64,000 bases of DNA from Candidatus Krumholzibacteriota bacterium (GCA_963764625.1 CAVXTH010000009.1:1062292-1126291); one strand, 5' to 3'; counted from the first letter of the stretch, positions 34,378-50,452 are shown. Notes: generated from the sequence alone by a model not told the origin. Translations and numbers: made by a program.

Positions 34378-37300
34378 ATGACCAAGTACTTTCCGGTCCT
34401 CCCGTTCGTGTGTTTTGCGCTGGTGCTCCTCAGCGCAAAGGGGAATGCCGAGGTCAGGCCCTTGGACGCCGATCATGGCGCATGGCCAACTCCCGATTTC
34501 AAGTCCTCGCTACCCTTGCGCGTGCGTTGGTTCTTCACCCCCGACGATCCGATGATGGCTGAGGCGCGGTTGAAACAGTCGAGCAGCGTGCAGCTGAAGG
34601 GTGTGCTCACGGGCCTCGATGGTCGCTGGATTCTGGAGGCCGAATTCGACAGCCTTCAGGCGGTGGAAGCAAGCTTTGGACTGCTCGGCACTCTGGTGCG
34701 TGATCGCAGTGGCACCCCCGCTCTCTCGCGGACCACCGCGCTGGTGGGGGTCAGGCCGCGGGTGTGGGACCAACTCGATCTGAGAGGCGACATGGCGTCC
34801 ACCGTGGCCATCCTGGACAGCGGATGCGACGCGGCGTGCGACGACTTGGGCGACATCGACTACGACAATGTCGATGAGCCGTTGCTCCATGCGGGGGATG
34901 CGGACGACTGGAGCGATGCGCTCGGTGGCATCAGTCCTGATCCACGCATCCGAATCGTGGGTTGGCACGACGTCACCAACGACGTGAGCGGATCCGACGG
35001 TCCCTATGACTATCACTACCACGGGACGGCATTGGCCAGTGCCGCCTTTTCCTCGGGGCGAAGCGGCGACGAACATCGCGGCGTCGCGCCTGAAGGACGA
35101 TTCGTAGTGGTCAAGACCTACAATTTCGAAGGGCGCTGGGAAGTCTGGGCCAGCGATTTGTTGCTGGGTATTCAATGGGTCCTGGACCACGTGCAGAGCC
35201 ATCACATTCACGCGTGTCTCATCGGCGCGGTGTGGGACCAGGACTTGGGGATTTCGACCGCGGTGCAGGCTCTACTCGACGCGGGCGTGGTGGTGATCGC
35301 ACCGGCGGGGAACGACCGCAACGGGAGCATGGGATGGCCGGCGCGCCTGGATGGAGTGATCTGCGTGGGCGCCACCGACGCGGACGGCCGAGTCGCCGCC
35401 TACAACACGCCCGGCTTGACGGCGAACTCGCGCCCCGACCTGGTGGCGCCGGGCGGCGGGAGCGACCCGTTGACCGGCCCCATCGTCTGCGACGACAACG
35501 AGCCCGACGACACCTTTCGGGGTCGGGTCGGCACCAGCATCGCGGCGGCCCACGTCGCGGGTGCGGTCAGCTTGATCTCTCAGGCCCTGCGCGAGAGCGG
35601 CAGACCGTGGAGGTATCAACTCGAGCAGACGCAGTGGATCCAGCAGCTCTTGCGAGCCACCGCGGTCGAGACCCAAGCCGCAGAGCCGGGCGCGGCTGGC
35701 GTGCCCCCTCTGGATCACGGGGGCTTCGACCCGATCGAGGGCTACGGTCTGCTCCAGGCGGATGCGGCGGTCAACGCGGTGAGAAGGTCGCTCTGGCCGG
35801 GAGAAGCGGAGGACTTTAGCCTGGGGTCGCCGGTGAATTCTTCCGCGGTGTGGGCGGCGCGGATGCCTCTCTCTGGAGCCACGGATCTGCGTCTGGAACT
35901 CACCGTTCCCGGCGCGGCCGACTTCGACCTGATGCTCTACCGCGAAGACCTCGATGGCTTCGTCCTCGTTGACAGTTCGAGCACGCCGGCCCTCGGCGCC
36001 CTGGAGAGCCTCGACTTGGCCGGGCTTTCGCCTTCGAACTATCTGCTGGTGGTCAAGCGTATCGCGGGCGAGGGACAGGCCCGCCTCAAGTCCATCGTGA
36101 ATTTCTTGGGAGACACTGCGTGGCCGATCCTCCTCTCCGACCAGGCCGCGAGTGAACCGGTTCCCCATGATGTCGATGGGGACGGGGCGGAGGAGATCTT
36201 CCTGAGCTACAACGTGGCGATCCTCGACACGGGCCATTTGATTTCGATGAACGCCGCCAACGGGCGGCCACGCTCCCCCTTTCCGCGTGACTTCTTCACC
36301 CCCACCACGCGACCCGGTCAGTTGAGTGGGGTCGCGGTCGGAGACTTGGGTAGTGGAGAGGAAATCGTGTTCGGTTCGCAGTTCGGGTCGGTCTATGCGA
36401 TGGATTTCGCGGGGCAGTTCACCCTCCAAACCGAAGTAACTCCGGCCCTCCCCACGAGCGCGCCTTCGCTGTGGGGAGATGGGGCGCAGACCCGCATCCT
36501 GGTGGGAACGACCGAGGGCGCCGCCATCCTGGATCCCGCGGGTCAGGTGGTGGATCGTTGGCTCCTGGGCGGTACGAGCAATGGTGAGCTCGCCCTCGGA
36601 GATTTGAACGGAGACGGCGCCGAGGAAATCGTGGTCGGTGTTGCCTCGACGGTACACGCGCGCACCATCGACGGAAGTCCCGTCAACGGGTGGCCGGTGG
36701 TGGAAGACGCGTCCTCCCGAATCACTGCCCCCTCGATCTTCGGGGGAACGGGGGGACCCGCGGTCTTCGTGGGAGAAATTCAAGCCAGCGGCGCCGCCCG
36801 GATCTTGGGGCTTTCGGGCGGTGCGGCTTCTCTTCCCGGATTTCCCGCCGCGCTCTCCGAAGAAGGTTCGGTCATCGCGATGGGGGATCCCGTCGTCTCG
36901 CAAGTGGGGGGCGCGGGGCCGGTCGTGCTGTGTGCGGTTCTGGTGGCGCGTGCCGACCAGAGTCTCTACGCACGGATCCACGAGGTGGACCTCTCGGGCA
37001 GGGACCAGCCGCTGGCTTCGTTGGAACTCGCCGGACCCGTGTTTCGTGACTCGGTCTTCGAGATCCTCCGAAGCGATCTCTCTTCGGTATGTGTTGGTGA
37101 CTTGGTGGAGGGGGCGGACCCCGAACTCTATTTCAGCCTGCAGCTCGCGTGGCGGGAGAAGCAGGCGCAACCGTCGACGGAATTGCGGTACGGAAGCACC
37201 CGCCGGATCGTGGCCTACCGTGAGGGCGTGATCGATCCTCGCCTCCAATGGGATTTGGCCAGCTCGCACCCGATCGACGAGGCCAAGGCGCAAAAACTTC

Positions 37301-37806
37301 CGGCGATCGCGTGGAAGCTCGCTCCCGTCATCACGGATCTGGACCAGGACGGCCGGTCCGAGATGCTGATCGACCGCGGCTTCCGTGTCTTCCTGCAGGA
37401 AGGCGAAGTAGGGAGCACCACGCCCGCGAGCTACTGGAGCACGCCCCGCAATGGTCCCAAGAGAAGCGCCTGTTACGAATGCGGCCAACAGCCCAAGCTC
37501 GAAAGCGGCGCAACCCCGACCCCCTCGCCGCGTGCCCTGAGCTTGAAAGTTCTTCCAAATCCCTTCAATCCGAGAACGGTGCTCGAGCTGACCAGCACCA
37601 GGGCGGGATGGGCCAGACTCTCCCTCGTCGATGCGCGGGGACGCAGGGTCAAGGAGTGGGGTTGTCAGCTGGAGCCCGGCGTGCCGCTCAGGGAAGTGCT
37701 GGAAGGCACCGACCACGAGGGGAGGAGCCTGGCCAGCGGAGTCTATCGGGTGGTGGCGGAGGTGGACGGCCAGCGCGTCATTCGTGCGGTGACTCTGGTG
37801 CGCTGA
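34378..37806 (+). CDS. Secreted S8 subtilase with PPC-like domain, FG-GAP-like repeats and FlgD-Ig/T9SS-type C-terminal domain
   Basis: Signal peptide. Triad ILDSG / HGT / GTSIAAAHVAG with oxyanion AGN. DFDLMLY. DxDGDG repeats. C-terminal PNPFNP...DARGRRV...LASGVY. Confidence 0.9.
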   Translation: MTKYFPVLPFVCFALVLLSAKGNAEVRPLDADHGAWPTPDFKSSLPLRVRWFFTPDDPMMAEARLKQSSSVQLKGVLTGLDGRWILEAEFDSLQAVEASFGLLGTLVRDRSGTPALSRTTALVGVRPRVWDQLDLRGDMASTVAILDSGCDAACDDLGDIDYDNVDEPLLHAGDADDWSDALGGISPDPRIRIVGWHDVTNDVSGSDGPYDYHYHGTALASAAFSSGRSGDEHRGVAPEGRFVVVKTYNFEGRWEVWASDLLLGIQWVLDHVQSHHIHACLIGAVWDQDLGISTAVQALLDAGVVVIAPAGNDRNGSMGWPARLDGVICVGATDADGRVAAYNTPGLTANSRPDLVAPGGGSDPLTGPIVCDDNEPDDTFRGRVGTSIAAAHVAGAVSLISQALRESGRPWRYQLEQTQWIQQLLRATAVETQAAEPGAAGVPPLDHGGFDPIEGYGLLQADAAVNAVRRSLWPGEAEDFSLGSPVNSSAVWAARMPLSGATDLRLELTVPGAADFDLMLYREDLDGFVLVDSSSTPALGALESLDLAGLSPSNYLLVVKRIAGEGQARLKSIVNFLGDTAWPILLSDQAASEPVPHDVDGDGAEEIFLSYNVAILDTGHLISMNAANGRPRSPFPRDFFTPTTRPGQLSGVAVGDLGSGEEIVFGSQFGSVYAMDFAGQFTLQTEVTPALPTSAPSLWGDGAQTRILVGTTEGAAILDPAGQVVDRWLLGGTSNGELALGDLNGDGAEEIVVGVASTVHARTIDGSPVNGWPVVEDASSRITAPSIFGGTGGPAVFVGEIQASGAARILGLSGGAASLPGFPAALSEEGSVIAMGDPVVSQVGGAGPVVLCAVLVARADQSLYARIHEVDLSGRDQPLASLELAGPVFRDSVFEILRSDLSSVCVGDLVEGADPELYFSLQLAWREKQAQPSTELRYGSTRRIVAYREGVIDPRLQWDLASSHPIDEAKAQKLPAIAWKLAPVITDLDQDGRSEMLIDRGFRVFLQEGEVGSTTPASYWSTPRNGPKRSACYECGQQPKLESGATPTPSPRALSLKVLPNPFNPRTVLELTSTRAGWARLSLVDARGRRVKEWGCQLEPGVPLREVLEGTDHEGRSLASGVYRVVAEVDGQRVIRAVTLVR

Positions 37807-38668: not shown

Positions 38669-38971
38669 GTGCACCTCGGAGAGAGTCGCGAACCGCGCCG
38701 CGAGTGGGTGGTTCGCGGCGAAACCTCCAGCCGGAGGCTTCCGCCACTATCCTCGCCTGCCTTGCTCTCGCATGCAAGGATTCCGCCGGAGGCCGAACCG
38801 TTCGGAGCGCACAACCCCTTTTCATTTGGCCGCCCTGATGGCGATGCGCTACATTTCATGACTTCGAACGGCATCGGAAAGGGCTGAGAGGCGCGAGGGC
38901 TAGAGGGCTTCCGCGATGAGCTGTGACCTCCCCTTCAGAGGCGAAGCGGGCCGCGCCCCCCAATCTCGGAA

Positions 38972-41473
38972 GTGAGTGAAGCCATGGCGGGCTACCATCC
39001 GCACGAAATCGAACCCGAGTGGAGACGTCGTTGGGACGAGTCGGGAAACCACGACGCGCACTTGGAACAGGAGGACGGGCGTCCTCACTGCTATTGCCTC
39101 GTCATGTTCTCGTATCCCTCGGGGAACAAGCTCCACTTGGGTCATTGGTTCAACTACGGCCCGACGGACACATGGGCCCGCTACCGGCGCATGCGCGGGG
39201 ACAAGGTCTTTCAGCCGATGGGCTTCGATTCGTTCGGGCTTCCCGCGGAAAACTACGCCATCAAGAGCAACGTTCACCCCAGAATCCATACCGAAGAGAA
39301 CATCGCTTTCATGCAAGAACAATTGAAAGTGCTGGGAGCGATGTACGACTGGAAGCACGAAATTCAGACCCACACTCCCGAATACTACAAGTGGACCCAG
39401 TGGCTCTTCCTTCGCCTGTACGAGGGCGGCTATGCCTATCGGGGAAAGGCGCCGGTCAACTGGTGCGACCACTGTCAGACGGTGCTCGCCAATGAGCAGG
39501 TTTCGGGAGGGCTCTGCGAACGATGCGATCACGAGGTGCGGCAGAGGGAACTCACGCAGTGGTTCTTCTCGATCACGAAATTCGCCGACGAGCTTTTGGA
39601 AGGCCTCGAGCTCATCGATTGGCCGCACAAGACGGTTGCCATGCAGCGCAACTGGATCGGGAGGAGCGAGGGCGCACGGATCCGCTTCACCATCGAGGAA
39701 TCGCCTGCCGCTTCGAAGAAGGGCGCTGAACTCGATCTGAGCGTGTTCACGACCCGGCCTGATACCGTTTTCGGCGTCACCTATCTCGTACTCGCCCCCG
39801 AGCATCCGCTGGTGACCGAGATCGTCACCGAGGAACAGAGAGCTGCGGTGGACGCGTACGTCCACGCCGCAGCCAAGTTGAGCGAGATCGATCGCACCAG
39901 TTTGGCGCGCCAGAAGACCGGTGTGTTCAGCGGGGTGTGGGCGATCAATCCCGTGAACCGAGAGAGAATCCCGGTGTGGATCGCGGATTATGTGCTCGCC
40001 ACCTACGGCACCGGCGCCGTCATGGCGGTACCCGCTCACGACGAACGTGATTTCGCATTCGCGCGCGAATACGGACTGACGATACGGCGTGTAATTCTGG
40101 GAGAGAAGAAGGATCAAAACGAGCCACTAGAGGAGGCGTGGACCGAAGACGGTCCCATGTGCGCAAGTGGAGAATTCGACGGCGAACAAGGCGACGCGGC
40201 GCGCGCCAAGGTCATCGCGTGGCTGGAAAGAGAACAAAAAGGTGAGGGCACGGTGAACTATCGCCTCCGCGATTGGTTGATCAGCCGCCAGCGCTATTGG
40301 GGGGCGCCGATTCCCATCATCCACTGTTCCCATTGCGGAGAGGTTCCGGTTCCGCTCGCCGACCTTCCGGTGGAGTTGCCACAGGACGTGGAATTCAAAC
40401 CCACCGGAGAGAGTCCTCTCGCGGCCCATCCTCACTGGAAGTTCACGAGCTGTCCGAAGTGCGGCGGAAAGGCGGAGCGGGAGGTGGACACCATGGACAC
40501 TTTCGTCGATTCGAGTTGGTACTACCTCCGCTACCTGAGTCCGCATCTCTCCGACGCGCCCTTTTCCAAAGAGATGGTGAAGGAATGGGTGCCGGTGGCG
40601 CAATACGTGGGAGGAGCCGAACACGCGGCCATGCATCTGCTCTATGCGCGCTTCATCGCCAAGGCGCTGAAGAGTCTGGGAGAGGTGGAATTCGACGAAC
40701 CATTTCAGAAATTGGTGCATCAAGGTGTCATCACCAGCGATGGCGCGCGCATGAGCAAGAGCCGGGGCAACGTGGTGAACCCGGAATCCTATCTGAAGAA
40801 ATACGGGAGCGACACGCTGCGCACCTACCTGATGTTCGGATTCGAATACACCCGCGGGGGAGATTGGGACGACAAGGGTATCCACGGCATGTTCAAGTAC
40901 CTCAGCCGCGTTTACCGCTTCGTCGAGTCTCACGCCGCCGAACTTTCCGACCCGAAGGGGAGGGACGAAAGCGAGGCCTTCGAAGAGCTGCGGTATACGC
41001 GCCATTTCTCGGTGAAAATGGCGACCCTCGATCTGGACCGCTTCCAGTTCAACACCGCGCTCTCTCGCCACATGGAGTTCACCAACGAGCTGCACGCCTA
41101 CGCCAAGCTCAGGGCAGTCTCCACCTGGGGTGAGGAGGCGCGAGAGATCGTGCTCGACTGGGCGAGAATGCTCGCGCCGTTCGCGCCTCACCTCGGCGAG
41201 GAAATCTTCAAGATGTTGGGTGGAAGGGGAACGGTCTTCGACCAACCCTGGCCGTCTTGGGAGGAGGGCGCGCTTCAACGCGACGTGGTCACGGTGGTCA
41301 TTCAGGTCAATGGCAAGCTGCGCGATGAGATGGAGGTGAAGAGGGGGACCAGCCGGGAGGAACTGCAGAAGAAATCCCAGTCCCACGGCCGGATTCCCCA
41401 GTGGCTGGAGGGGAAAGAGATCAAGAGAGTCATTGTTGTTCCTGACAAACTCGTGAACATCGTAGTAGGATAG
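38972..41473 (+). CDS. leuS: Leucine--tRNA ligase
   Basis: MFSYPSG..LHLGH, QRNWIGRSEG, FTTRPDT editing domain, SRQRYWG, RMSKS, QVNGKLR. Confidence 0.98.
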   Translation: MSEAMAGYHPHEIEPEWRRRWDESGNHDAHLEQEDGRPHCYCLVMFSYPSGNKLHLGHWFNYGPTDTWARYRRMRGDKVFQPMGFDSFGLPAENYAIKSNVHPRIHTEENIAFMQEQLKVLGAMYDWKHEIQTHTPEYYKWTQWLFLRLYEGGYAYRGKAPVNWCDHCQTVLANEQVSGGLCERCDHEVRQRELTQWFFSITKFADELLEGLELIDWPHKTVAMQRNWIGRSEGARIRFTIEESPAASKKGAELDLSVFTTRPDTVFGVTYLVLAPEHPLVTEIVTEEQRAAVDAYVHAAAKLSEIDRTSLARQKTGVFSGVWAINPVNRERIPVWIADYVLATYGTGAVMAVPAHDERDFAFAREYGLTIRRVILGEKKDQNEPLEEAWTEDGPMCASGEFDGEQGDAARAKVIAWLEREQKGEGTVNYRLRDWLISRQRYWGAPIPIIHCSHCGEVPVPLADLPVELPQDVEFKPTGESPLAAHPHWKFTSCPKCGGKAEREVDTMDTFVDSSWYYLRYLSPHLSDAPFSKEMVKEWVPVAQYVGGAEHAAMHLLYARFIAKALKSLGEVEFDEPFQKLVHQGVITSDGARMSKSRGNVVNPESYLKKYGSDTLRTYLMFGFEYTRGGDWDDKGIHGMFKYLSRVYRFVESHAAELSDPKGRDESEAFEELRYTRHFSVKMATLDLDRFQFNTALSRHMEFTNELHAYAKLRAVSTWGEEAREIVLDWARMLAPFAPHLGEEIFKMLGGRGTVFDQPWPSWEEGALQRDVVTVVIQVNGKLRDEMEVKRGTSREELQKKSQSHGRIPQWLEGKEIKRVIVVPDKLVNIVVG

Positions 41474-41522: not shown

Positions 41523-44500
41523 ATGAGCTATTGGTCTCAACTCGAGGAATCACGCCGCTGTTTGACGGCGGGGGATTTTCTCGCGGCAGAACGACACTAT
41601 TTTGAAGCCCGTGAGAATCACGGTCGCTCGCGGCTGCGCGCGCCTCTCATGGAAAAGGGAGTCGAGCCGCTCCTGCGCAGCGTTCGCCGTCTCGTCCAGA
41701 AGCAGGAGCCGAATGAAGAAGGCCCCGCCTTTCCCGCCGCGGCCGAGCGCCTGTTCAAGGATCTACAAGACGTAGCCACTCTCCACGAGAGCGATACCCG
41801 GGCTCGACTGGGTGAAAACTGGGAGAGCCTCGATCTCGACTCGACGGCTCGACTCGGAATCGCGCTGAGCTTTCAGGCAAAATCTCGACTCTTCCACCTC
41901 AGTCCCGCCGAGCACTGGGCCGCGGTGCGAGCCTATCTCAATGGTTGTCTCCGTCACGGCATGGGGGTGGCTCCCGAACTGCTCGATCCGCAAGTCGACG
42001 GCGGAGAGGAAGGCCGGAGGTGGCTGTGCGCTCTCCTGGACGAGTGCCTGAAGGACCAGACTCGCATCCTGCAGCCCATCTCATCCTGGCTCCTGACTCA
42101 ACTCTCTCCCTTGGCCGACCGTGAGGGCGATCCTCTCCAAGGGCAGGCGCTCGCCTTGCGCTGTCAGATTCTGCTCCTGGATCCACTGGGCGCACCGGCT
42201 GCCCTCCGGGAAGGCATCTTCGCCTTGCAGTCGGTCTACCCGCCCCATGATCCCGCCGGGCTCTTGCGCCTCGTGGCCGGCCTGGCGTGCAACGAGAGAC
42301 GATTGGCTGCGGCGTGGGCCGACGAGTCCACTCTGCTCGCCCTACAGCCTCTGGCCAAGCACTTCGGTCTCATCTGGCCACCGAGCGACCTGGTCGCGCT
42401 TCTGGCGAGCCGGCGTCCGCCCCAAGGAGCGTCGGTTCTGGCCGCGGTGGCGTGGGAAGGGGAACCGGGCGGACGCGTGCTGTTGCTCAAGCAGAACGGC
42501 CGTGCTCCGATCGATCTGTTGCTCCTGCGTCCCAGCGACGAGATGACCAAGCTCGCCGATCCCTTCGCGCTCTCGATGACCGAAGCCCTGGCCGCAGTCG
42601 ACCGTTGGCTTCCCGAGGAGTGCCTCGTGCTCTGCGGTCCCCCACCTCCGCCCTGGTTGCTGTCTCTGTTGGGAGAACGACCCCATCTCTGCGTGGGAGC
42701 TCTCGACTCGGTCTTCCCCGCCCTGCAGCCTTTGGCAGAGCGTGCGGCACCGGCGGCGGCACACCCTCTCTTCGCGCAGACGAGGGACGCACTCAGCGAG
42801 GAGTGGGTTTCGCTGGTGCACGCAGCGCGCGAGCTGAGCCCGCGCGTTCTCTCCCTGGCCAACTCGGAGGCCCTGGGAAGCGACTGGGGGCTTCGAAATC
42901 TCGAGGCTCTCGGTGCGGTGGGACTGGCGATTCCGCGGCGTCTGTCGCATGCCCTGCGCGCTCTCGGGGCTCCCTCCACGGTGGAGTTCATGGCGCTCGA
43001 GCAACTGGGGGGAGTGGCGAGTCTGGAGTGGCCCTCCCTGGCCGATCGCGCCTGGCCTGGCCACCAGCTTCCGTACATCCCCATGGATCTTCCCCAGACC
43101 GATGCCCTGATCGCCGGCCATCCCAGCTCAGGAGAGTTGATGGGGAGCGCGCTTTCGGCCATGCCCTGCACCGTGCTGGGCTGCACCGAGGAGAGTGTGT
43201 TGCAGTTGGCCGCGGGATTGGTCGGCCAGGTCGATCCTCGCCGCATCGGCGTGACGCCGCAGGAGAGTCTCTGTCCCGAGAAGGTCTTCGCGCTTCTGGA
43301 CGCGTGGATCGAGGAGAGCCTGGTGGACGAGGCGCGCTCGCTGGACGTGCTGTGGCTCTACCACGCTTTGGCCACCACTCCGGACGGAGACTTGCGCCGC
43401 TGGCTCTCTTCGAACGGAACGAGCGCCGCGCGCGAGGAACTTCTGGCGCGACTGGAAGAGTGCGGGCCCTGTCAGGGAGAATGCCGTCTCGCGCAGAATC
43501 AACTCTGCTTCGCCGATCAGCTCGCGGCGCGGAGGAGGCAGAGCCAGGTCTGGTTCGAATGGACCGAGTGTCTCGAGTCGGCCGTGAGTGAGAGCGCCGC
43601 TGGACGTCGCCTGGTGTGCGATGATCTTGTGCAGCTCTTCGCCGAAATGGAAGACGAACGCGCGTTGAGGGTTCTCGACGCTCTGATGGAACGTGCGGCC
43701 GCGGCTGAATCGGTGCTCGCGTGGTCGCAGAGCGCATCCTTTTGCGACGCGCTGGCGCGCGAGCTCTCTCTCCGTCTTCCGGAAGGAAGGAGCTTCGCGG
43801 TGGCGGCGGCCGAGGATGCGCGCGAGCTAGCGCTGCATCTCTCTCCCGCTGGTTACTCTCCCGGGAGCTGGGTCCTCGATGCGGAATCGCGCGCCCTGAT
43901 CCGCGCCCGGGTGCAAGCGTGGACGAAGCGTTCGCGCGCGGCGCGGGCCTGGATCGCACCCGCATCGGTTTCGGGACCCTGGAAAGACGTCGCCGGCGCG
44001 CATCCTCTGAGCGGTATGGGCAAAGCCGCGCACGAGGCCGTGGTGGTCGCATTGCTCGGACCGCCCGGACTTCTCGATCGCGTACTCGCGCTGATGAGAT
44101 TGTCCGCCGCGGCGACCTTCGCTTCCCGGGAGTTGGCCTGTGTCGATCCCCGGCTCGCTGAACTCTTCGGGGACGCGTGGTCCGTCTCGCCCAACGCATC
44201 CATTCTCACCGATCCCTCCCTGGTGACCGGAGGAGCGCAGTTGCTCGACAAGACTTCGAGCCGCGCGGTTCCGGACTGGACCCAACCCTTCGTGGCGAGC
44301 CGACTCGAAGCGGTCAGCAAGCGATTGGGACCGGCGCGTTCCGTGGCGAAGGAGAGAATTGCCTGGCTGGCCGATGCGCTCGCCCCTCTGGGAAGAGGGG
44401 GGCGGCGAGTGCTCGGCGCGGCCCTGAGCGAGGACCGGGTGCTGCTGGCGTGGACAGTCGCCGGTCTCGCCGAGCAGAGTCGCGACGGAGGCCCGCTCGA

Positions 44501-47500
44501 CGCGCGCTTCGTGATCTGGGTCGGGGCGGAAGATCCGGACCTCTTCGCCGGCGCGCCCTTCGGGGTGGCGGTTGCCGGACGAGAGGGGCACCAAGGGCAA
44601 GAGCTCGCGGCGGAACTCGAGACGGGACGGATCCAGCTTCTGGTCGTCCCACCCCTGCTCCTCAATTCAGAACAATGGCGCGCCTGGCTCACGGGACTGC
44701 GCCACTATCTCCTCTTTCTCGCCGAGGCTGACCTCGCGCTTCCCACGCATCCGGCGCACGACCCCAACCTTTTGGAGACGCTTCGCTCGCTCGAGTTCGA
44801 TTCGTCCGTGAGCTGTCTTGCCTGCGCCGACCAATCCGATCCGAGCGCGCAGGGACCACTCGCCGCTCTGGCCGCGGAGATTCGGGGACATGCGGCCTTG
44901 ATCGGTCCCAATCAGGAGCTGGAAGGTTGGAGTTGGCAGCGAGTACGGCTGGAGGATCCGCTCTGGCGCTGCGGGAACTGTCAACGGGAGCAGACCCTAC
45001 CCCATCTCCATGCTCTCTGTACCCAGTGCGGCCATGCTCTGCTCGATTCGCTCTCCGATCGGGCTCAGGGCGAGCAAGCGCTTCGCGGCAGCCAGGTACA
45101 CTGGCTTTCCCGGCAGGGCTTCGAGAACGAGCTCTTGGTCGTGGTGGAAAACGCGGCGGAACACGAGGCCCTCACCCGTGACCTGGGCATCGTCTCTGAG
45201 GACGAGCTTGCGCCTCTGCTCGGAGGAACCTGGTCGGTGCGCGTCATGGTCCTTCAGGAACTTTGGAAAGAAGAGCCTCCGGCCGGAGAGTTGATCTTCG
45301 CTCGGCTTCCTCTGGATCCCGAAGCGTTGCGCGCTGCCCTGGCCAGGCTGAAGGCACGCGGTCGCCAGCACGGGGTCCTGCGCTTCATGGATCATCCTCT
45401 CATGTGGGGTGCTCTCGATCCTTCGCGTTCTCACGAGCACGCGGAGGAGTTGCCCCCGCTCTTCGAGCTGCGCTGGAAAGTCGCGCGGGCCGAGGTGGAA
45501 TTCCGCTCGCGCGAAGCCCTGGGTCGCATCGAGCGAGCCCTGAGGGCGCGAGGCCCCGTGAAGGGACGCCTACGCCGTGGACTGGGTCCGGTGGCCGATC
45601 CCCACCAGGATCTCAGGGTGTCTCGGCTCGCCGACGCAGTGGAGATCTGGCGCTCGCTGGCCAGTGAGGGCTTTGCCGTCGAGGAGATCCAGGAGCGGGG
45701 CAACAAGGAGGTGGCCAAGGCCCTGGACACCCTCGCCGCGGCGGGACTCGCCTTCGGGTCGGCCGAACCCGCGGTTCCCTCGCTGGCCGATCTCTTCGCC
45801 GATTCCGCCAGGCGCGAGGCCTCGCGCGCATTTCTTTCCTGGTGCGTGACCGAGGGTCTTCTGGAAGCTCCGTTCCGACCGAGCGAGGAATCGAGACCCC
45901 CGCGGCCTGTGGCCGAGGGAAGCGAGGTTCTGCACTGGCGGGACATGGCGCGCACCGCGCCCACCGGAGTGGCGAGCGTGCTGGCTCCCTGGCCGAAGAC
46001 GCCGCCACCCACGGAAAAAAGCGCCGCCAAAGACGCGGAGTTCTCCGCGAGCGGAGCCTGGCTGCTCGGCGTGCCGGGATCGGGAAAGAGCGGTGGACTC
46101 TTTGCGCGGCTTCACGCCGAGCGTGAGAGTCCGGTTCCTTTGGTCGTCGTCTCGAGCCACACCGGGCTCTTGCGCTGGGACGAGATGGCCAGAAGGAACG
46201 AGTTGCCGGCCGGTCGCATGCTGGTCGTCACGATGCACGAACTCGTGCTGGATTTTCTCCGTTGCCACTACGAACTCGGCGGATTCTCCCGCCTTCCGAG
46301 AATCCTGTCCGTGACACCCGAGAGCGAAGATTTGCGGCGCAGACTCATCCAGCAGACGAGCCGCCGCTACGCGCGCGAGGCCGGCGTAAGTCCGCCGGTG
46401 GATCTGATGGACATGCGCCGCGTGGTCGAGGGAGGCGACGGGTTGGCGCTGGCCGCCTCGGGATCGGCCGAGCTGGATTTTTCCCTCCTGCAGAAGAGCG
46501 CGGCCGAAGTTCGACGAGAGGGAGGCTTCGTGCTCCCCAACGAGTTGGGGATTCTCTCGCGGCGTTGGCTGGTGGAACACCCCTACGTGGGCGAGGCCTG
46601 GCGTGATCGCTACCCGCGCGTCTTCGTCGACGATCTCGACGATATGCGCGCCGACGAAGCGGCGTTTCTCGACCGCCTCTTTCCCGAAGGGTTCCGCATG
46701 GCCGCGGCGGACCCGGGCCTCTTGCCGGTGGGCTCGGCCATGCGCGGAGACATGGGGGTTCGCAAGAGCCATCGTTTGCCCCGCGAGCTCGCGCGCGCCG
46801 CCGAAGTGCTCCTACGCGAGGACCTGCTCGGGCGTGGTTCGATCAAGGCGAGAAGCCGCGAGAAAGGTCGGCTCGCGCGCCAGCAGGTGCTCAATCTCGA
46901 GGCGTGCGTTCACCACATCGAGAGCGCCCTGAGCGGAGAGCAATGGCAGAGACAACGGGTGGGGATCGTGATCACCTACGACGGAGATCTCCCGCGACTC
47001 GCGTCACGTCTGCGAGAGGCCGAAATCGCGGTCTGGCCCGCGGCGCAAGTGATGCCGGCCTGTGTACCCGGGCCTCGTGATTTCCTCTTGGCGCTGGCTC
47101 TGGCGGCGAAGGGGCCCAAGCTGGAGCCGCTGGTCGCCGGTTCGCTGGCGCTCACGCTGCTGCAGATCGCGGAGATTTCTCCCGGCCGACGCGATCCGGC
47201 CGAGCTCGGCCTCTGGCTGGCGAAACTCTTCGAGGCGCAGACCCTGCGGCCGCGCGATCCGGCCGAGGCGTTCCTGCAGCCGCTCGGGCTCGCGGCTCGC
47301 GCCCTGGATGGGGCCGAGACCCTCTGGGACGTGGCGCAGATCGTCCAGGCCACGCGCCTCTTGCCCCGTCTCGAGACGGACGATGCCGCCGCGGCCCGCC
47401 TGGCCTCGTACCTCGAGGAGAGGGCGGGCATGCCCTGGCAGGGGGTTCTCTTGGGTCTGGATCCGGCCGGACTCGTCGATCCGCTGGCTCCAGGAGCGCG

Positions 47501-47669
47501 GGTCTGGCTGCTGGGCACCGAAGAACTCGCCGGCCTGGAGCTGGATCGGGGATTCTACCTCTGCACCGGGCACGAGCCGGCCGAACTGCACTATCGTGTC
47601 CTCGGCCGTATCAAGGAGAGTCTGACCGTGCTCTACTCCGAGCGCGATCCCTTCGCCTCCCGCCTCTAG
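41523..47669 (+). CDS. 2048-aa multidomain protein with degenerate DnaQ-exonuclease-, DinG-, RecQ- and UvrD-like modules
   Basis: Uninterrupted 6.1-kb ORF. UvrD-like motifs in order: GVPGSGKS, VTMHEL, RVFVDDLDD, SHRLP, GLELD, LGRIKESL. RecQ-like GRIQLLVVPP...LFLAEAD. DinG-like Cys cluster. ORF confidence is high, domain calls are by eye. Confidence 0.7.
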   Translation: MSYWSQLEESRRCLTAGDFLAAERHYFEARENHGRSRLRAPLMEKGVEPLLRSVRRLVQKQEPNEEGPAFPAAAERLFKDLQDVATLHESDTRARLGENWESLDLDSTARLGIALSFQAKSRLFHLSPAEHWAAVRAYLNGCLRHGMGVAPELLDPQVDGGEEGRRWLCALLDECLKDQTRILQPISSWLLTQLSPLADREGDPLQGQALALRCQILLLDPLGAPAALREGIFALQSVYPPHDPAGLLRLVAGLACNERRLAAAWADESTLLALQPLAKHFGLIWPPSDLVALLASRRPPQGASVLAAVAWEGEPGGRVLLLKQNGRAPIDLLLLRPSDEMTKLADPFALSMTEALAAVDRWLPEECLVLCGPPPPPWLLSLLGERPHLCVGALDSVFPALQPLAERAAPAAAHPLFAQTRDALSEEWVSLVHAARELSPRVLSLANSEALGSDWGLRNLEALGAVGLAIPRRLSHALRALGAPSTVEFMALEQLGGVASLEWPSLADRAWPGHQLPYIPMDLPQTDALIAGHPSSGELMGSALSAMPCTVLGCTEESVLQLAAGLVGQVDPRRIGVTPQESLCPEKVFALLDAWIEESLVDEARSLDVLWLYHALATTPDGDLRRWLSSNGTSAAREELLARLEECGPCQGECRLAQNQLCFADQLAARRRQSQVWFEWTECLESAVSESAAGRRLVCDDLVQLFAEMEDERALRVLDALMERAAAAESVLAWSQSASFCDALARELSLRLPEGRSFAVAAAEDARELALHLSPAGYSPGSWVLDAESRALIRARVQAWTKRSRAARAWIAPASVSGPWKDVAGAHPLSGMGKAAHEAVVVALLGPPGLLDRVLALMRLSAAATFASRELACVDPRLAELFGDAWSVSPNASILTDPSLVTGGAQLLDKTSSRAVPDWTQPFVASRLEAVSKRLGPARSVAKERIAWLADALAPLGRGGRRVLGAALSEDRVLLAWTVAGLAEQSRDGGPLDARFVIWVGAEDPDLFAGAPFGVAVAGREGHQGQELAAELETGRIQLLVVPPLLLNSEQWRAWLTGLRHYLLFLAEADLALPTHPAHDPNLLETLRSLEFDSSVSCLACADQSDPSAQGPLAALAAEIRGHAALIGPNQELEGWSWQRVRLEDPLWRCGNCQREQTLPHLHALCTQCGHALLDSLSDRAQGEQALRGSQVHWLSRQGFENELLVVVENAAEHEALTRDLGIVSEDELAPLLGGTWSVRVMVLQELWKEEPPAGELIFARLPLDPEALRAALARLKARGRQHGVLRFMDHPLMWGALDPSRSHEHAEELPPLFELRWKVARAEVEFRSREALGRIERALRARGPVKGRLRRGLGPVADPHQDLRVSRLADAVEIWRSLASEGFAVEEIQERGNKEVAKALDTLAAAGLAFGSAEPAVPSLADLFADSARREASRAFLSWCVTEGLLEAPFRPSEESRPPRPVAEGSEVLHWRDMARTAPTGVASVLAPWPKTPPPTEKSAAKDAEFSASGAWLLGVPGSGKSGGLFARLHAERESPVPLVVVSSHTGLLRWDEMARRNELPAGRMLVVTMHELVLDFLRCHYELGGFSRLPRILSVTPESEDLRRRLIQQTSRRYAREAGVSPPVDLMDMRRVVEGGDGLALAASGSAELDFSLLQKSAAEVRREGGFVLPNELGILSRRWLVEHPYVGEAWRDRYPRVFVDDLDDMRADEAAFLDRLFPEGFRMAAADPGLLPVGSAMRGDMGVRKSHRLPRELARAAEVLLREDLLGRGSIKARSREKGRLARQQVLNLEACVHHIESALSGEQWQRQRVGIVITYDGDLPRLASRLREAEIAVWPAAQVMPACVPGPRDFLLALALAAKGPKLEPLVAGSLALTLLQIAEISPGRRDPAELGLWLAKLFEAQTLRPRDPAEAFLQPLGLAARALDGAETLWDVAQIVQATRLLPRLETDDAAAARLASYLEERAGMPWQGVLLGLDPAGLVDPLAPGARVWLLGTEELAGLELDRGFYLCTGHEPAELHYRVLGRIKESLTVLYSERDPFASRL

Positions 47670-48125
47670 GGACCCGCGTCGCCTGGGGTCTTTCGGGCTC
47701 GCATGCGCAAGAGCAGGTAGATGCAACCCCCCGCTCAGGACCGCCAGCGCCAGGCCCACCGGGATCGCTCCCACCCAGGCCGCGCCCAGGTAGGGCGCCA
47801 GAGTCTCCCAAGTCCACTCACCGGAGAGCGAGGGGAGATTTCTTCCGAGCATCCAGCTCCCGCAACGGATCTCCAGCAGAGTCAAGGGAATGAAGGTGAG
47901 GGGATTGGAGAGATTGCTCCCGAGCACCGCGGCGGCGGGGGGAAGTCGCAGAGCCCCCGCGAGCACGGCCGAGAGCCAGGTGTGAACCCCCAGAATCGGG
48001 GTGGCGCCGACGAGGGCGCCGAGGCCCACGCTGGCGCTCGTCCGCGCGGGACGCCTCGGATCGCGCAGCAATCCGGCCCAAACGGACGGATGAGGGAGGA
48101 GGCGGGAGGCGCGACGAAACGGCAT
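47666..48125 (-). CDS. DUF2062 family membrane protein, with an apparent frameshift near 47727-47732
   Basis: ASVGLGALVGATPILGVHT, SNPLTFIPL, GSWMLG. Removing one G from the G6 run gives ...GGCIYLLLRMRARK...stop at 47666-47668. Confidence 0.8.
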
Positions 48126-48306
48126 GGCTTATGCGCCAGAGCTCGGCGTGGGCCTGCGGAAATCCCTCCACGGGAACTCTGCGGTGCAAAACGGGAGGTC
48201 CATCGCCCCATCGCTTGCAAAGCGCAAGAGAGGGCCCTGCCGCCACCGGAATCGCCGGGGTTGGTGGATAGCGGACCCGAATTCAATCTCCAAGGAGTCG
48301 ACCATC

Positions 48307-48882
48307 ATGAAAAGCTTGCGCTTGGTTGGTTTGATGCTGCTGATCAGCTGCCTGGCCACGCCGGCCGTCGCAGCCAAACTGGGTATATTCTTCGACACTA
48401 ACGCCACCGTGGACAACATGGTATTCCAACCTGGGACCCCCTTCGAAATCCATGTGATCATGTACGACATGAATGACTCCGCGCTAGGTGTGGAGTTCAA
48501 AGTGGATCTGCCCCCCGAGCTCGTCGTCCTGCAACAGACTTGGCACGACGGCACTCTCGTGTTCTCCTACTACAACCAGGCCGGGGGCGCCACGGTGGGC
48601 GTTCAGGTCGGAATGGGAGAATGCACTTTCATGACCGACGGCTGGAACCCGACCTACGAGGTTCTGACCATGCTGGTCTATTGCCCAACCACCATGCCCG
48701 CCTCGACGATTTCGCTGACCGGGTTCCCTGGTGACACCGGTGACACGATGCCGCGCTACGCGCAGTGCCCGAGCATTGCTCCTCCCCTGATCCAGATGAC
48801 TCCCACGGACGGTACCGTCAGAGTCTCCGTCCCCGCCGAGACTTCGACCTGGGGTTCGGTCAAAGCTCAGTTTGGAGAATGA
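48307..48882 (+). CDS. Secreted beta-rich (cohesin/Ig-like) protein with C-terminal TWGSVKAQF tail
   Basis: RBS AAGGAG then ATG 48307. Signal peptide MKSLRLVGLMLLISCLATPAVA. Confidence 0.8.
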   Translation: MKSLRLVGLMLLISCLATPAVAAKLGIFFDTNATVDNMVFQPGTPFEIHVIMYDMNDSALGVEFKVDLPPELVVLQQTWHDGTLVFSYYNQAGGATVGVQVGMGECTFMTDGWNPTYEVLTMLVYCPTTMPASTISLTGFPGDTGDTMPRYAQCPSIAPPLIQMTPTDGTVRVSVPAETSTWGSVKAQFGE

Positions 48883-49010
48883 CGCCGAGAGCTTCTCGCA
48901 TCCTATCGGATTCGATTGCCGTACGGGGAAGGGTCCGGGCCATGCCGCTCGGACCCTTCGTCGTTGTAGGAAGCGCAGATCCAATGCTAGCTTGCCGGCA
49001 GGAGGATATC

Positions 49011-49634
49011 ATGCGAACTGAAGTAATCCCCGAGCAGTTTCCGCAACGCGTCCTGCTCGAGGAGAGCGCCCGTTTGGCCGCGGCCAATTTGGAAATGTCC
49101 TCCCGTCTTTCGGTCCTGAGGTTGGTGTTGGACGCCCCTGAGTTCGAGTTGGGCGGATATTGGCAGGTCGAGAGCGAACGCGACGGACTCCATGCGATCA
49201 TCTACGCCTCGATCCTCGACCTTCTCACCCCGCGCAGCGCCACCGAGAGCCGCGTGCGCGACCTCGATGAGGAGCTTCTCCAGGAGCTCGGAGTCGAGCG
49301 TATCGACCGGCTCCGCATCGATCGTTGGCTTCACCGCAATCTGCTCCAACTGGATGATCTTCTGTGCAAGCGTATTCAACCCTCGACCCTTTCCCGGGCC
49401 GACGCGGCCGCGTTCCAGGCGTGTTGGGAGGTTTGGACCGACGGACGGTTGAAAGCGCTCTCCTTGCCTGGGATCTCCCTGGCCGAACGGCGCAGAGTGT
49501 TCTTCCGTACCTTTGCCGGCAGAGGCTTGCTGCTTCCCCGTCACTGGAAAGTGTTTCACGGCCTGTGGGACGGTGACTTCCAGGACCATCGCGGCTTGAT
49601 CGAGGCGAGCCGCAGACTCCCTCGTCTCAGCTGA
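49011..49634 (+). CDS. Hypothetical protein (possible inactive zincin-like fold)
   Basis: RBS AGGAGG then ATG 49011. Globular composition with a WEVWTDGRL motif. Confidence 0.65.
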   Translation: MRTEVIPEQFPQRVLLEESARLAAANLEMSSRLSVLRLVLDAPEFELGGYWQVESERDGLHAIIYASILDLLTPRSATESRVRDLDEELLQELGVERIDRLRIDRWLHRNLLQLDDLLCKRIQPSTLSRADAAAFQACWEVWTDGRLKALSLPGISLAERRRVFFRTFAGRGLLLPRHWKVFHGLWDGDFQDHRGLIEASRRLPRLS

Positions 49635-49810: not shown

Positions 49811-50323
49811 ATGTACTCGTTTCCTCATCGCGTTCGTCGAGTTCTGCCCGCGTGGGGCGTGGTGATTCTTCTCCTCTCGGCGCCGATCGGCTCGAGGGCT
49901 CCCGCCCGCGCCCAAGACGACTCTCGCCTACTGGCCCAGGACGCCTTGGGAGAAGTGAACTGGCTCTGGGTCGTGCCCAGGATCGAGCTCCACCCGCAGG
50001 AGGAGTGGATCCTCAGCGCATACTACAGCCACCTGGGCAGTTGCGAGCTCGACATGGCCCTGCTCGATCGCAAGGGGAACTCGATCGCGCGCGCGCGGCT
50101 GAAGCTTGTGGCGGGCCAGCCCAACGACTATCGTCTCCGCGAATTCGAGGGCATCGCGACCGGAGTTCCTCTGACTCTCGTCATTTCGGGCCTGCGGGCG
50201 AGGCCGGAGGCGGTCGCGTTCACGCTCACCGCCAGCCCGGCGGGTGGCTGCGAGCGGGAATTGCGCGGATCGTGGCTGCAGGGCGATATTGAGTGGGTCC
50301 CGGGCCTCAAAGGAAAGCCCTAG
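49811..50323 (+). CDS. Hypothetical exported protein
   Basis: Basic N-region, hydrophobic stretch and ARA-QD cleavage-like site. Beta-rich mature part. Fills the gap between neighbours. Confidence 0.55.
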   Translation: MYSFPHRVRRVLPAWGVVILLLSAPIGSRAPARAQDDSRLLAQDALGEVNWLWVVPRIELHPQEEWILSAYYSHLGSCELDMALLDRKGNSIARARLKLVAGQPNDYRLREFEGIATGVPLTLVISGLRARPEAVAFTLTASPAGGCERELRGSWLQGDIEWVPGLKGKP

Positions 50324-50359: not shown

Positions 50360-50452
50360 ACCCGGGTTGTTCGGGCAGCCACTCTTGCCGCGCCTGCCGG
50401 AATTTATGCCAAGCCTTCAAGGCAGTTTGCTCAAAGTACGGAGGAAGACTCG

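What the first reader, a model, noticed from the sequence alone, without database searches (positions are those of the whole stretch)
41523..47669. Giant intact fusion of four eroded DNA-processing enzymes (DnaQ-exo + DinG + RecQ + UvrD) behind leuS
Seen: a 2048-codon ORF with no stop, 49 nt after leuS on the same strand. By-eye comparison with family motifs gives four modules in series after a helical N-terminus. (i) aa ~305-375, RVLLLKQNGRAPIDLLLLRP...EALAAVDRWLPEECLVLCG, resembles a DnaQ/DEDDh exonuclease without the acidic residues. (ii) aa ~580-880 is DinG-like: ESLCPEK for NYLC, TPDGDL for TETGDL, LVCDD for IIDEAH, CVDPRL for ILDPRL. (iii) aa ~1030-1080 is RecQ-like: GRIQLLVVPPLL for GEIKLLYVAPER, LFLAEAD for AVDEAH, AHDP for GHDFRP. 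(iv) aa ~1510-2048 carries UvrD/PcrA motifs I, Ib, II, IV, V and VI in correct order. Inference: a pseudo-enzyme scaffold that keeps nucleic-acid-binding folds from both SF1 and SF2 helicases while losing catalysis. It could act as a DNA-structure sensor, a repair hub or a decoy for phage inhibitors. I know of no described protein with this architecture.
Basis: partly seen in the sequence, partly recalled or inferred. Interest (0 to 1): 0.9.

Follow-up and report, generated by a model that had tools for sequence, protein, structure and literature searches.

The report
Giant fusion of three silenced helicases
A real, conserved 2048-residue protein found in one little-known bacterial lineage strings together DinG-like, RecQ-like and UvrD-like helicase folds, most of whose ATP-using motifs are gone, so it probably binds rather than unwinds nucleic acids.

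Summary
The ORF 41523-47669 (+, 2048 codons, 49 nt after leuS) is real, and every quoted peptide is present. It is under purifying selection along its whole length, with dN/dS 0.09-0.13 in close pairs.

No sequence method places it in a known family. Pfam and NCBIfam gave 0 hits, PDB profile searches gave nothing, and hhalign gave <5% probability.

- helical N-terminus;
- small RNase-H-like domain, not searched on its own;
- full SF2 core. Its best Foldseek hit is S. aureus exonuclease-DinG, but VIA-align ties it with other SF2 helicases;
- zinc ribbon, then an untested stretch (aa 1131-1507);
- complete UvrD/Rep fold (E 4e-12).

Modules i-iii lack Walker A/B in all 28 aligned relatives. The UvrD-like P-loop is intact in this protein, but Lys is Arg in 58 of 71 relatives.

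The family has 111 clusters among 1.84 billion proteins. It occurs in two families of one phylum (f1 9/9, f7 85/91) and was not found in 107 other genomes. Canonical DinG and UvrD coexist with it.

Best reading: a helicase-derived binding scaffold or switch. Function is untested.

The parts
41523..47669 (+). Whole gene, 2048 codons plus stop
   Evidence: conserved full length in relatives; dN/dS 0.09-0.13
41523..42410 (+). N-terminal all-helical domain, aa 1-296, with the family signature SYW..L..A...L..GDF..AE
   Evidence: AF2 helices 2-296, pLDDT mostly >90; Y3, E23, A29, E44 invariant in 28 sequences; no informative look-alike
42420..42722 (+). Small alpha/beta domain, aa 300-400, RNase-H/DnaQ-like strand order without a DEDD set (pseudo-exonuclease candidate)
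   Evidence: DSSP order b305-312, b318-325, b328-338, b349-351, h352-362, b368-371, h377-383, b388-390. The first strand reads AWEG in f1 and AWAS in f7 where DxE would sit. W311 in 67 of 71 and D331 in 70 of 71. Not searched as a single domain.
42990..44222 (+). SF2 two-RecA helicase core, aa 490-900, DinG/XPD-like
43116..43139 (+). Remnant P-loop of the DinG-like core, GHPSSGEL (aa 532-539): Glu where Lys would be, Leu where Ser/Thr would be
   Evidence: sits between strand 528-531 and helix 536-545; no GK[ST] in any of 28 sequences
43272..43508 (+). Four cysteines C584, C650, C654, C662 at the place of the DinG iron-sulfur domain
   Evidence: They lie between the P-loop remnant and the Walker B remnant. 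The genome's canonical DinG has C297, C356, C361, C367 between GIGKS (234) and DEAH (409). In the giant family they are present in 18-21 of 71 members only.
43611..43625 (+). Remnant Walker B of the DinG-like core, LVCDD (aa 697-701)
   Evidence: strand 696-701; DD in the f1 rows of the 28 (7 of 8; DG in L009); the 20 f7 rows have no acidic pair in these columns, but the alignment is uncertain there and the f7 string WVFLD, two to nine columns on, may be the equivalent strand
44139..44156 (+). CVDPRL (aa 873-878), counterpart of the LLDxRL motif that ends canonical DinG
   Evidence: D875 in 70 of 71, R877 in 69 of 71; canonical DinG of the same genome has LLLDKRL at 848-854
44268..44906 (+). 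RecQ-type RecA-like domain 1, aa 916-1128, no P-loop, AEAD in place of DEAH
44970..45029 (+). Zinc ribbon CxxC-x12-CxxC, aa 1150-1169
   Evidence: two CxxC pairs in 44 of 71 family members, one in 8, none in 19; Zn_ribbon_3 hit below cut-off in relative P0018
45120..46043 (+). Alpha/beta segment (aa 1200-1295, possibly the second RecA domain of the RecQ-like module) and helical region to aa 1507; fold not identified
   Evidence: DSSP alternation of strands and helices. All three fold-search lists on this model covered only model residues 373-918.
46044..47666 (+). Complete UvrD/Rep/PcrA-like SF1 core, aa 1508-2048
46068..46091 (+). Walker A GVPGSGKS (aa 1516-1523), canonical here
   Evidence: at the Lys position the family has R 58, K 8, other 5 of 71; Ser/Thr follows in 17 of 71
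46620..46634 (+). Walker B VDDLD (aa 1700-1704)
   Evidence: position 1703 is D 65 / E 6 of 71; position 1704 is D 16 / P 47 of 71
47556..47642 (+). SF1 motif V/VI-like end, YLCTGHE....HYRVLGRIKESLTVLY (aa 2012-2040)
   Evidence: G2016 and E2018 in 71 of 71, R2029 in 63 of 71. The assignment to motifs V/VI rests on recalled UvrD motifs and on the phylum UvrD consensus.
38972..41473 (+). leuS, directly upstream on the same strand
   Evidence: Pfam. leuS is directly upstream of the giant gene in loci L001-L006 and in 4 of 20 f7 loci.
34378..37806 (+). Subtilase (Peptidase_S8), conserved upstream neighbour
   Evidence: Pfam. Homologues were found upstream of the giant gene in 17 of 20 f7 loci. 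A long same-strand ORF abuts the giant gene in 16 of them. Three of those ORFs were confirmed as Peptidase_S8.
47004..48125 (-). Convergent DUF2062 membrane-protein gene; its open frame runs 666 nt into the 3' end of the giant gene
   Evidence: Pfam DUF2062 E 4.6e-16 on aa 23-131. In relatives the tail lies in a separate alignment piece with lower identity.

Best explanation
The gene encodes a lineage-specific giant protein assembled from three different helicase cores. After a helical N-terminal domain come, in order:
- a pseudo-exonuclease-like domain plus a DinG/XPD-like SF2 core, which in this clade still carries four cysteines at the iron-sulfur position;
- a RecQ-like SF2 module with a zinc ribbon;
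- a complete UvrD-like SF1 core.

The first two cores have lost Walker A and B and cannot burn ATP. They most likely survive as clefts that bind nucleic acid, or as docking surfaces, in the way RecC, AddB or the inactive cassette of Brr2 do.

The UvrD-like core keeps a glycine-rich P-loop with a basic residue, one Walker B aspartate and a motif VI-like arginine. Its Lys is usually Arg across the family. It therefore most likely binds a nucleotide and acts as a slow switch rather than a processive motor.

Shown: the gene is real and constrained; the fold order; the motif states; the distribution. Inferred: nucleic-acid binding, nucleotide binding and the scaffold or switch role.
For: Gene is real and constrained:
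- dN/dS is 0.09-0.13 and even across six regions.
- Colinear homologues occur in 28 fetched genomes.

Folds (AF2 pLDDT 87.2 and 77.3):
- S. aureus DinG is the top Foldseek hit at E 3e-7.

Motifs:
- No GK[ST] and no DE pair in modules ii and iii in any of 28 sequences.
- D875/R877 are in 70 and 69 of 71 and match the LLDxRL end of canonical DinG.
- The 4-Cys pattern is colinear with the canonical DinG pattern.
- At the P-loop Lys position of module iv the family has R 58, K 8, other 5 of 71. G2016 and E2018 are in 71 of 71 and R2029 in 63 of 71.

Not a replacement for the real enzymes:
- Canonical UvrD and DinG are in the same genome.
- In the phylum, DinG is in 90 of 101 genomes, UvrD in 41 of 41 and RecQ in 39 of 101.
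Against: - No experiment or computation here shows binding of DNA, RNA or nucleotide.
- This window's own protein has a canonical Walker A (GSGKS) and VDD, so its UvrD-like core may be a working ATPase.
- RecQ leads the next family by only about 1.7 Z.
- The exonuclease-like domain and aa 1131-1507 were never searched on their own.
- hhalign finds no sequence kinship with the phylum's RNase_T, DinG, RecQ or UvrD; the best is 4.8%.
- The models rest on 28-sequence alignments.
- Neighbours are leuS, a subtilase, a DUF2062 membrane protein and secreted or unknown proteins. None is a repair gene.
Confidence: 0.45

Rival explanations
1. It is an active single-motor machine. The UvrD-like core hydrolyses ATP and translocates, at least in lineages with Lys in the P-loop such as this one. 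The dead DinG-like and RecQ-like cores act as accessory strand channels or pins, like RecC in RecBCD or AddB in AddAB.
For: - The window protein has GVPGSGKS, VDD and R2029.
- The fold covers all of UvrD.
- AddB, AdnAB and RecB are among the Foldseek hits at E 6e-10 to 3e-6.
Against: - Lys is Arg in 58 of 71 relatives, including L002 and L003 at 77% identity.
- Ser/Thr after it is missing in 54 of 71.
- The second Walker B acid is Pro in 47 of 71.
- K and R swap between close relatives, which argues against strong selection for hydrolysis.
Confidence: 0.3
2. The protein acts on a protein partner rather than on free nucleic acid. One option is an RNA-polymerase-binding factor in the manner of HelD. 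Another is a role tied to its conserved secreted or protease neighbours, in which the helicase folds are purely structural.
For: - Subtilase homologues lie upstream in 17 of 20 f7 loci, abutting the giant gene in 16.
- Homologues of two downstream unknown proteins lie beside it in all 20 f7 loci.
Against: - No HelD-specific or SecA-specific insertion was examined.
- Synteny may reflect common descent, because leuS also travels with the gene.
- In this genome the next gene is convergent, so no downstream operon partner is evident.
Confidence: 0.15
3. The specific labels are over-read. The chain holds generic RecA-like pairs of uncertain origin. The resemblance to DinG and RecQ in particular is convergence or an artefact of modelling and ranking. 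Only the UvrD-like assignment is safe.
For: - No Pfam, NCBIfam or PDB sequence hit.
- hhalign <5%.
- VIA ties for aa 515-900.
- The ESM Atlas score is only 0.77, a lead only.
Against: Three independent kinds of feature agree with DinG:
- the Foldseek gap, 3e-7 against 2.3e-4 for the next family;
- four Cys between the P-loop and Walker B remnants, colinear with the canonical pattern;
- the near-invariant DxR end motif.

RecQ-family chains fill the top 11 and top 7 rows of two searches. All of the ten best Atlas hits that carry a family share a family or clan with the best of them, whose cluster is DEAD/ResIII/Helicase_C_2; the tool notes that a third of shuffled proteins give that too.
Confidence: 0.2

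Closest known systems
ExoDinG / pExoDinG subgroups of DinG-like SF2 helicases (S. aureus DinG, PDB 8zef; predicted Caulobacter pExoDinG)
   Same: - An N-terminal small exonuclease-like domain is followed by a DinG-type two-motor-domain core.
- S. aureus DinG is the top Foldseek hit.
- Like pExoDinG, the domain has one helix between strand 3 and strand 4 and lacks a full acidic set (review PMC11981726, section 3.6 read whole).
- Four Cys sit at the FeS position and the core ends in a DxR motif.
   Different: - pExoDinG is described as keeping its ATPase site. Here Walker A and DEAH are gone in all 28 sequences.
- The core is about 410 aa, against about 650 aa after the Walker A of the genome's own DinG. 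No Arch domain was identified.
- It is only the first third of a 2048-aa chain.
- There is no Helicase_C_2 or DEAD Pfam hit.
RecQ family helicases (D. radiodurans RecQ 4q48, WRN, RECQL5, BLM)
   Same: - RecA domain 1 is the best structural match for aa 916-1128.
- GRIQLLVVPPLL and LFLAEAD lie in the same order and at similar spacing as LLYxAPERL and DEAH in the phylum's RecQ consensus.
   Different: - There is no P-loop, AEAD stands for DEAH, and there is no TIGR00614 or RecQ_Zn_bind hit.
- The zinc ribbon lies between domain 1 and the presumed domain 2, not after domain 2.
- Domain 2 and any winged helix are unverified.
UvrD/Rep/PcrA SF1A helicases and their relatives AddB, AdnAB, RecB, HelD
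   Same: The whole core fold is matched. The motif-like strings run in UvrD order: GSGKS, TMHE, VDDLD, YDGDLPRLASRL, GHE, R2029.
   Different: - No PF00580 or PF13361 hit.
- A profile of the region finds no canonical UvrD among 1.84 billion proteins.
- Family-wide the P-loop Lys is Arg and the second Walker B acid is Pro.
- The gap between motif V-like and motif VI-like residues is only 11 aa.
Helicase-derived pseudoenzymes: RecC, AddB, the C-terminal cassette of Brr2, D. radiodurans PriA
   Same: - Helicase folds are kept after loss of catalytic motifs and reused for binding or regulation.
- AddB is among the Foldseek hits.
- D. radiodurans PriA is called a pseudohelicase in PMC4504706 (search listing only).
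   Different: - Those proteins each contain one helicase family, or two cassettes of the same family.
- Here three different families (XPD/DinG-like, RecQ-like, UvrD-like) are in one chain.
- The roles of RecC, AddB and Brr2 are recalled, not read here.

Membership tests
UvrD/Rep/PcrA (SF1A) helicases | Complete helicase core fold (the 1A/1B/2A/2B subdomain names are recalled) | tested here: met
UvrD/Rep/PcrA (SF1A) helicases | Sequence-profile membership (PF00580, PF13361) | tested here: not met
   0 Pfam families at E<=1. hhalign against 30 UvrD of the phylum gave 4.8%. The A3 profile found 111 proteins, whose lengths and matched ranges fit full-length family members or fragments of them; 14 of the 111 went through Pfam, 12 with no hit and 2 with weak ones.
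UvrD/Rep/PcrA (SF1A) helicases | Walker A GxxGxGK[ST] and Walker B DE | tested here: inconclusive
   The window protein has GSGKS and VDD. The family has K in 8 of 71 and R in 58 of 71, and the second acid is D in 16 and P in 47 of 71.
UvrD/Rep/PcrA (SF1A) helicases | ATP-dependent translocation or unwinding | not testable with these tools
   needs a biochemical assay
XPD/DinG (SF2) helicases | Two RecA-like motor domains with best structural match to the family | tested here: inconclusive
XPD/DinG (SF2) helicases | Walker A and DEAH box | tested here: not met
   GHPSSGEL and LVCDD; no GK[ST] and no DE in 28 of 28. Canonical DinG of the same genome has GIGKS and DEAH.
XPD/DinG (SF2) helicases | Four cysteines of the FeS domain between Walker A and Walker B | tested here: met
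   C584, C650, C654, C662 are colinear with C297, C356, C361, C367 of canonical DinG. They occur in only 18-21 of 71 family members. Cluster binding itself is not testable here.
XPD/DinG (SF2) helicases | Pfam DEAD_2 / Helicase_C_2 | tested here: not met
   no hit; hhalign 0.3%
ExoDinG / DnaQ-like DEDD exonuclease domain | RNase-H-like fold placed before the DinG core | tested here: inconclusive
   The strand/helix order fits, and the S. aureus DinG alignment spans 1052 columns for an 887-residue chain. No single-domain search was done, and hhalign against RNase_T gave 0.1%.
ExoDinG / DnaQ-like DEDD exonuclease domain | Four conserved acidic residues (DEDD) | tested here: not met
   The first strand reads AWEG or AWAS. 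Only D331 is near-invariant.
RecQ helicases | RecA domain 1 of RecQ type | tested here: met
RecQ helicases | Walker A, DEAH, and the RecQ C-terminal zinc-binding and winged-helix region | tested here: not met
   No P-loop, and AEAD for DEAH. No TIGR00614 or PF16124 hit. A zinc ribbon exists but lies before the presumed domain 2.
Helicase-derived pseudoenzymes (RecC/AddB/Brr2-C type) | Helicase fold retained with nucleotide-hydrolysis motifs lost, under purifying selection | tested here: met
   For modules ii and iii: folds, motifs absent in 28 of 28, dN/dS 0.09-0.14 in these regions for close pairs

The most novel reading that the evidence does not exclude
Two families of one bacterial phylum keep a single-chain 'fossil repairosome'. 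A pseudo-exonuclease-DinG, a RecQ and a UvrD were fused and then silenced. The chain is kept under selection as a new kind of nucleotide-gated hub that reads nucleic-acid structures or stalled polymerases. Its P-loop uses Arg instead of Lys. In one clade it may also carry an iron-sulfur cluster as a redox input.
Probability: 0.25. Interest if true: 0.85.

Novelty: new variant of a known kind. Interest (0 to 1): 0.72.

Why it matters
Helicase folds that have lost catalysis are known one at a time, for example RecC, AddB, the second cassette of Brr2 and D. radiodurans PriA. Here three different helicase families, plus a pseudo-nuclease, sit in one 2000-residue chain.

The protein is present in nearly all members of two bacterial families. 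It evolves under constraint and is invisible to every sequence library I tried. Three things follow:
- It shows how far fold-level searches can reach where Pfam and HH comparisons fail.
- It gives a natural case of a P-loop with Arg in place of Lys that is kept family-wide.
- It marks a lineage-specific, probably nucleic-acid-related function in a phylum known only from metagenomes.

If it proves to be a sensor or hub, it would be a new use of helicase scaffolds.

Tried and rejected
Sequence searches that gave nothing useful:
- Pfam and NCBIfam on the whole protein: 0 hits at E<=1.
- Pfam on three relatives: none. Pfam on 14 further relatives: two weak hits only, Viral_helicase1 at E 0.009 and Zn_ribbon_3 at E 0.0014.
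- PADLOC: only GajB at E 1e-3 and weaker, over aa 1645-1723.
- PDB phmmer and profile searches: nothing significant. The best was PRP16 at E 0.5, over the P-loop.
- BLASTP against the genome's own DinG and UvrD: nothing, E >= 0.14.
- hhalign of eight slices against RNase_T, DinG, RecQ and UvrD alignments built from the same phylum: all <5%.

ESM Atlas:
- aa 1-1130 scored 0.77 to DEAD/ResIII/Helicase_C_2 clusters, a lead only.
- aa 1-300 matched only unnamed helical proteins.

Fold searches, coverage limits:
- They never covered aa 1-296, 296-420 or 1131-1507 as single domains.

Pseudogene idea: rejected by dN/dS.

Defence-system idea: no support. The gene is single-copy and sits at a conserved chromosomal place beside leuS.

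The leuS-lptE-holA idea (order recalled from E. coli) for the downstream genes: no Pfam or NCBIfam support.

Expression: no RNA holder was listed among 20 runs.

Calls that did not complete:
- One Pfam call failed on references with stop codons.

Literature:
- No paper holds 'DinG-like', 'RecQ-like' and 'UvrD-like' together.
- 'Krumholzibacteriota' plus 'helicase' gave two unrelated papers.
- The DinG review has no occurrence of 'RecQ'.
- Supplementary tables of that review, which list the taxa of pExoDinG, could not be seen.

Full report
**Observation**

leuS (38972..41473, five tRNA-synthetase Pfam families) ends 49 nt upstream on the same strand. All quoted peptides are in the translation at about the stated positions. 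No terminator-like site lies between leuS and the ORF.

**A real, constrained gene**

- A word-based search of 5.8 billion proteins found six full-length homologues of 2002-2053 aa and 97-34% identity. One source labels one of them a Candidatus Krumholzibacteria MAG protein. They align end to end.
- Nei-Gojobori dN/dS is 0.088 for L002/L003 (dS 0.71) and 0.12-0.13 for the window against each of them. It is 0.23-0.28 for more distant pairs, whose dS is near saturation.
- The six regions of the protein give similar values, 0.06-0.20 in the closer pairs. The pseudogene alternative is rejected.

**Distribution**

| Query | Genomes with a match | By family |
|---|---|---|
| Single protein | 55 of 208 | all 9 other genomes of the window's family f1; 44 of 91 in f7, where only the two ends of 2000-2300-aa open frames matched |
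| Profile of aa 1131-2048, alignment A3 | 95 of 208 | f1 9/9, f7 85/91, 0 of 107 in the seven other families |

- I fetched 20 f7 loci. All 20 hold a colinear 1984-2290-aa homologue.
- The zero for the other seven families means 'not found with this profile'.
- The same profile, run over 1.84 billion representative proteins, found only 111 at E<=0.001. By length and matched range they look like full-length family members or fragments of them; only 14 were put through Pfam, with no strong hit. No canonical UvrD was among them.

So this is a small, closed, lineage-specific family. It is near-universal and mostly single-copy in two bacterial families.

**No sequence-level family**

- Pfam and NCBIfam give nothing at E<=1. 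PADLOC gives a GajB (UvrD-like) hit at E 1e-3 over aa 1645-1723.
- PDB sequence and profile searches give nothing significant.
- I built alignments of the phylum's own RNase_T domains (27 sequences), DinG (28), RecQ (30) and UvrD (30). I compared them with eight slices of the 28-sequence family alignment by hhalign.
- The best result was 4.8% probability, for the UvrD-like slice against UvrD over the P-loop.

**Folds**

Two AlphaFold2 models were built from 28-sequence alignments:

| Model | Residues | Mean pLDDT | pTM |
|---|---|---|---|
| N-terminal | aa 1-1130 | 87.2 | 0.66 |
| C-terminal | aa 1131-2048 | 77.3 | 0.64 |

C-terminal model:
- Foldseek against the PDB puts UvrD, Rep and PcrA first, at E 3.8e-12 to 5e-10, probability 1.0, with about 620-660 columns.
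- AddB, AdnAB and RecB follow.

N-terminal model:
- Foldseek's two best hits are S. aureus DinG (8zef_A at E 3e-7, 9ii8_A at 2.3e-6, probability 1.0). The alignment has 1052 columns for an 887-residue chain. The next family stands at 2.3e-4.
- S. aureus DinG carries an N-terminal 3'-5' exonuclease domain before the helicase core (PMC12345164, abstract and passages).
- RecQ-family chains fill rows 1-11. The first other family scores 12.6.
- The Foldseek-independent search repeats this with RECQ1, RECQL5, RECQL4, DrRecQ, WRN and BLM in rows 1-7.
- In the same search aa 515-900 aligns as a complete two-domain SF2 core.

Parts not covered by any list:
- aa 1-296 are all-helical.
- aa 300-400 have the strand-strand-strand-helix-strand-helix-strand order of an RNase-H/DnaQ-like domain.
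- Neither of these was covered by any list, nor was aa 1131-1507.

**Motifs**

The genome's canonical DinG (891 aa) has the following features:
- GIGKS at 234;
- four cysteines at 297 (in NYLC), 356, 361 and 367, conserved in 28 of 28 phylum DinGs;
- DEAH at 409;
- LLLDKRL at 848.

The giant protein has the same order of features:
- a P-loop-shaped GHPSSGEL (aa 532-539), with Glu for Lys;
- C584 (in ESLC), C650, C654 and C662;
- LVCDD (aa 697-701);
- CVDPRL (aa 873-878).

D875 and R877 are present in 70 and 69 of 71 distinct full-length family sequences, some of which are near-duplicates. The four cysteines occur in 18-21 of 71, that is, in the f1-like clade.

- None of the 28 aligned sequences has GK[ST] or a DE pair in the DinG-like or RecQ-like modules.
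- In the exonuclease-like domain the first strand reads AWEG (f1) or AWAS (f7) where DxE would be. Only W311 (67 of 71) and D331 (70 of 71) are kept.
- The phylum's RecQ consensus contains LLYxAPERL and DEAHCvSQWGHDFRPEY. The giant has GRIQLLVVPPLL and LFLAEAD...AHDP in the same order.
- A CxxC-x12-CxxC zinc ribbon follows at aa 1150-1169. Both pairs are present in 44 of 71.

In the UvrD-like module the window protein has a canonical GVPGSGKS and VDD. Across 71 sequences:

| Position | Residues found |
|---|---|
| P-loop Lys (1522) | R 58, K 8, other 5 |
| Next residue (1523) | Ser/Thr in 17 |
| First Walker B acid (1703) | D 65, E 6 |
| Second Walker B acid (1704) | D 16, P 47 |
| G2016 and E2018 | 71 of 71 |
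| R2029 | 63 of 71 |

K and R alternate between close relatives. The window and P0002 have K, while L002 and L003 (77% identical) have R.

**Context**

- The genome also encodes a canonical UvrD (767 aa, eight Pfam families) and the canonical DinG. No RecQ was found in this 96% complete genome.
- In the phylum, DinG is in 90 of 101 genomes, RecQ in 39 of 101 and UvrD in 41 of 41.
- The giant protein therefore coexists with the real enzymes and does not replace them.

Synteny is old:
- A subtilase homologue was found upstream in 17 of 20 f7 loci.
- A long same-strand ORF abuts the giant gene in 16 of these. Three of those ORFs were confirmed as Peptidase_S8.
- leuS intervenes in 4 f7 loci and in L001-L006.
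- Homologues of two downstream unknown proteins occur in all 20 f7 loci.
- In this window the next gene is a convergent DUF2062 gene.

Nothing nearby is a repair or defence gene.

**Mechanism**

Shown:
- the fold order;
- the loss of ATPase motifs in two of the three helicase cores;
- a half-kept nucleotide site in the third;
- constraint over the whole chain.

Inferred:
- The dead cores serve as binding clefts or docking surfaces, as in RecC, AddB or the inactive Brr2 cassette. Those roles are recalled, not read here.
- The UvrD-like core binds nucleotide as a switch.

The main rival is a working UvrD-like motor in K-type proteins such as this one. A protein-directed role (HelD-like, or linked to neighbours) and over-reading of the DinG and RecQ labels remain possible.

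**Comparison and novelty**

- The review of DinG-like proteins (PMC11981726; passages, and section 3.6 read whole) lists ExoDinG and pExoDinG.
- pExoDinG has an incomplete nuclease centre and one helix between strands 3 and 4, as here, but is described as keeping its ATPase site.
- The review has no occurrence of 'RecQ'. Its three mentions of UvrD concern cooperation, not fusion.
- No paper in the library holds 'DinG-like', 'RecQ-like' and 'UvrD-like' together.
- I found no description of this architecture. Subscription journals and supplements were not searchable.

**Limits**

- The models are predictions from shallow alignments.
- Family-specific labels for the SF2 modules rest on modest margins plus motif colinearity.
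- Three regions were not tested as single domains.
- No binding or activity was measured.

Noticed in passing
window 47004-48125 (-): A DUF2062 membrane-protein gene converges on the giant gene. Its Pfam match covers aa 23-131, yet the open frame has no stop for 373 codons and overlaps the giant gene's 3' end by 666 nt. In relatives the tail is a separate alignment piece with 39-52% identity, against 72-88% for the domain.
   Followed up: partly
window 34378-37806, 48765-49634, 50330-51313; loci L031-L050: The gene order is conserved across two bacterial families: subtilase, then (leuS), the giant gene, an unknown cytoplasmic protein of about 207 aa, and an unknown lipoprotein of about 286 aa. 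The neighbours are 30-57% identical where the giant protein is only about 19%.
   Followed up: partly
window 48307-48882, 49011-49634, 49811-50323, 50453-51313: Four downstream proteins have no Pfam or NCBIfam family. Two have signal-peptide-like starts, one a lipoprotein-like LANGC site, and one is cytoplasmic.
   Followed up: partly
window 47721-48401 (+): A 226-codon ORF of low-complexity Arg/Gly/Pro-rich sequence lies antisense to the DUF2062 gene. It is probably not a gene.
   Followed up: partly
L055:1320-3992 (own genome, contig C6): The canonical DinG is 891 aa, with about 215 residues before the DEAD match that have no Pfam family. It may be a pseudo-exonuclease DinG and a possible source of modules i and ii.
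   Followed up: no
own genome G000: No RecQ (PF16124, TIGR00614) was found in this 96% complete genome or in the 2 other genomes of its genus that were searched (of 4 held), while 29 of 39 f7 genomes have one.
   Followed up: partly
genomes G145, G149, G198, G009, G199: The canonical UvrD match contains one in-frame TGA in four genomes and one in-frame TAG in a fifth.
   Followed up: no
window 60534-64000 (+): A ribosomal RNA operon: 16S, two tRNAs, and the start of 23S, cut by the window end. Another tRNA lies at 15134-15215.
   Followed up: no
window 37778-38674 (-): A patatin-like phospholipase gene on the opposite strand lies between the subtilase and leuS.
   Followed up: no
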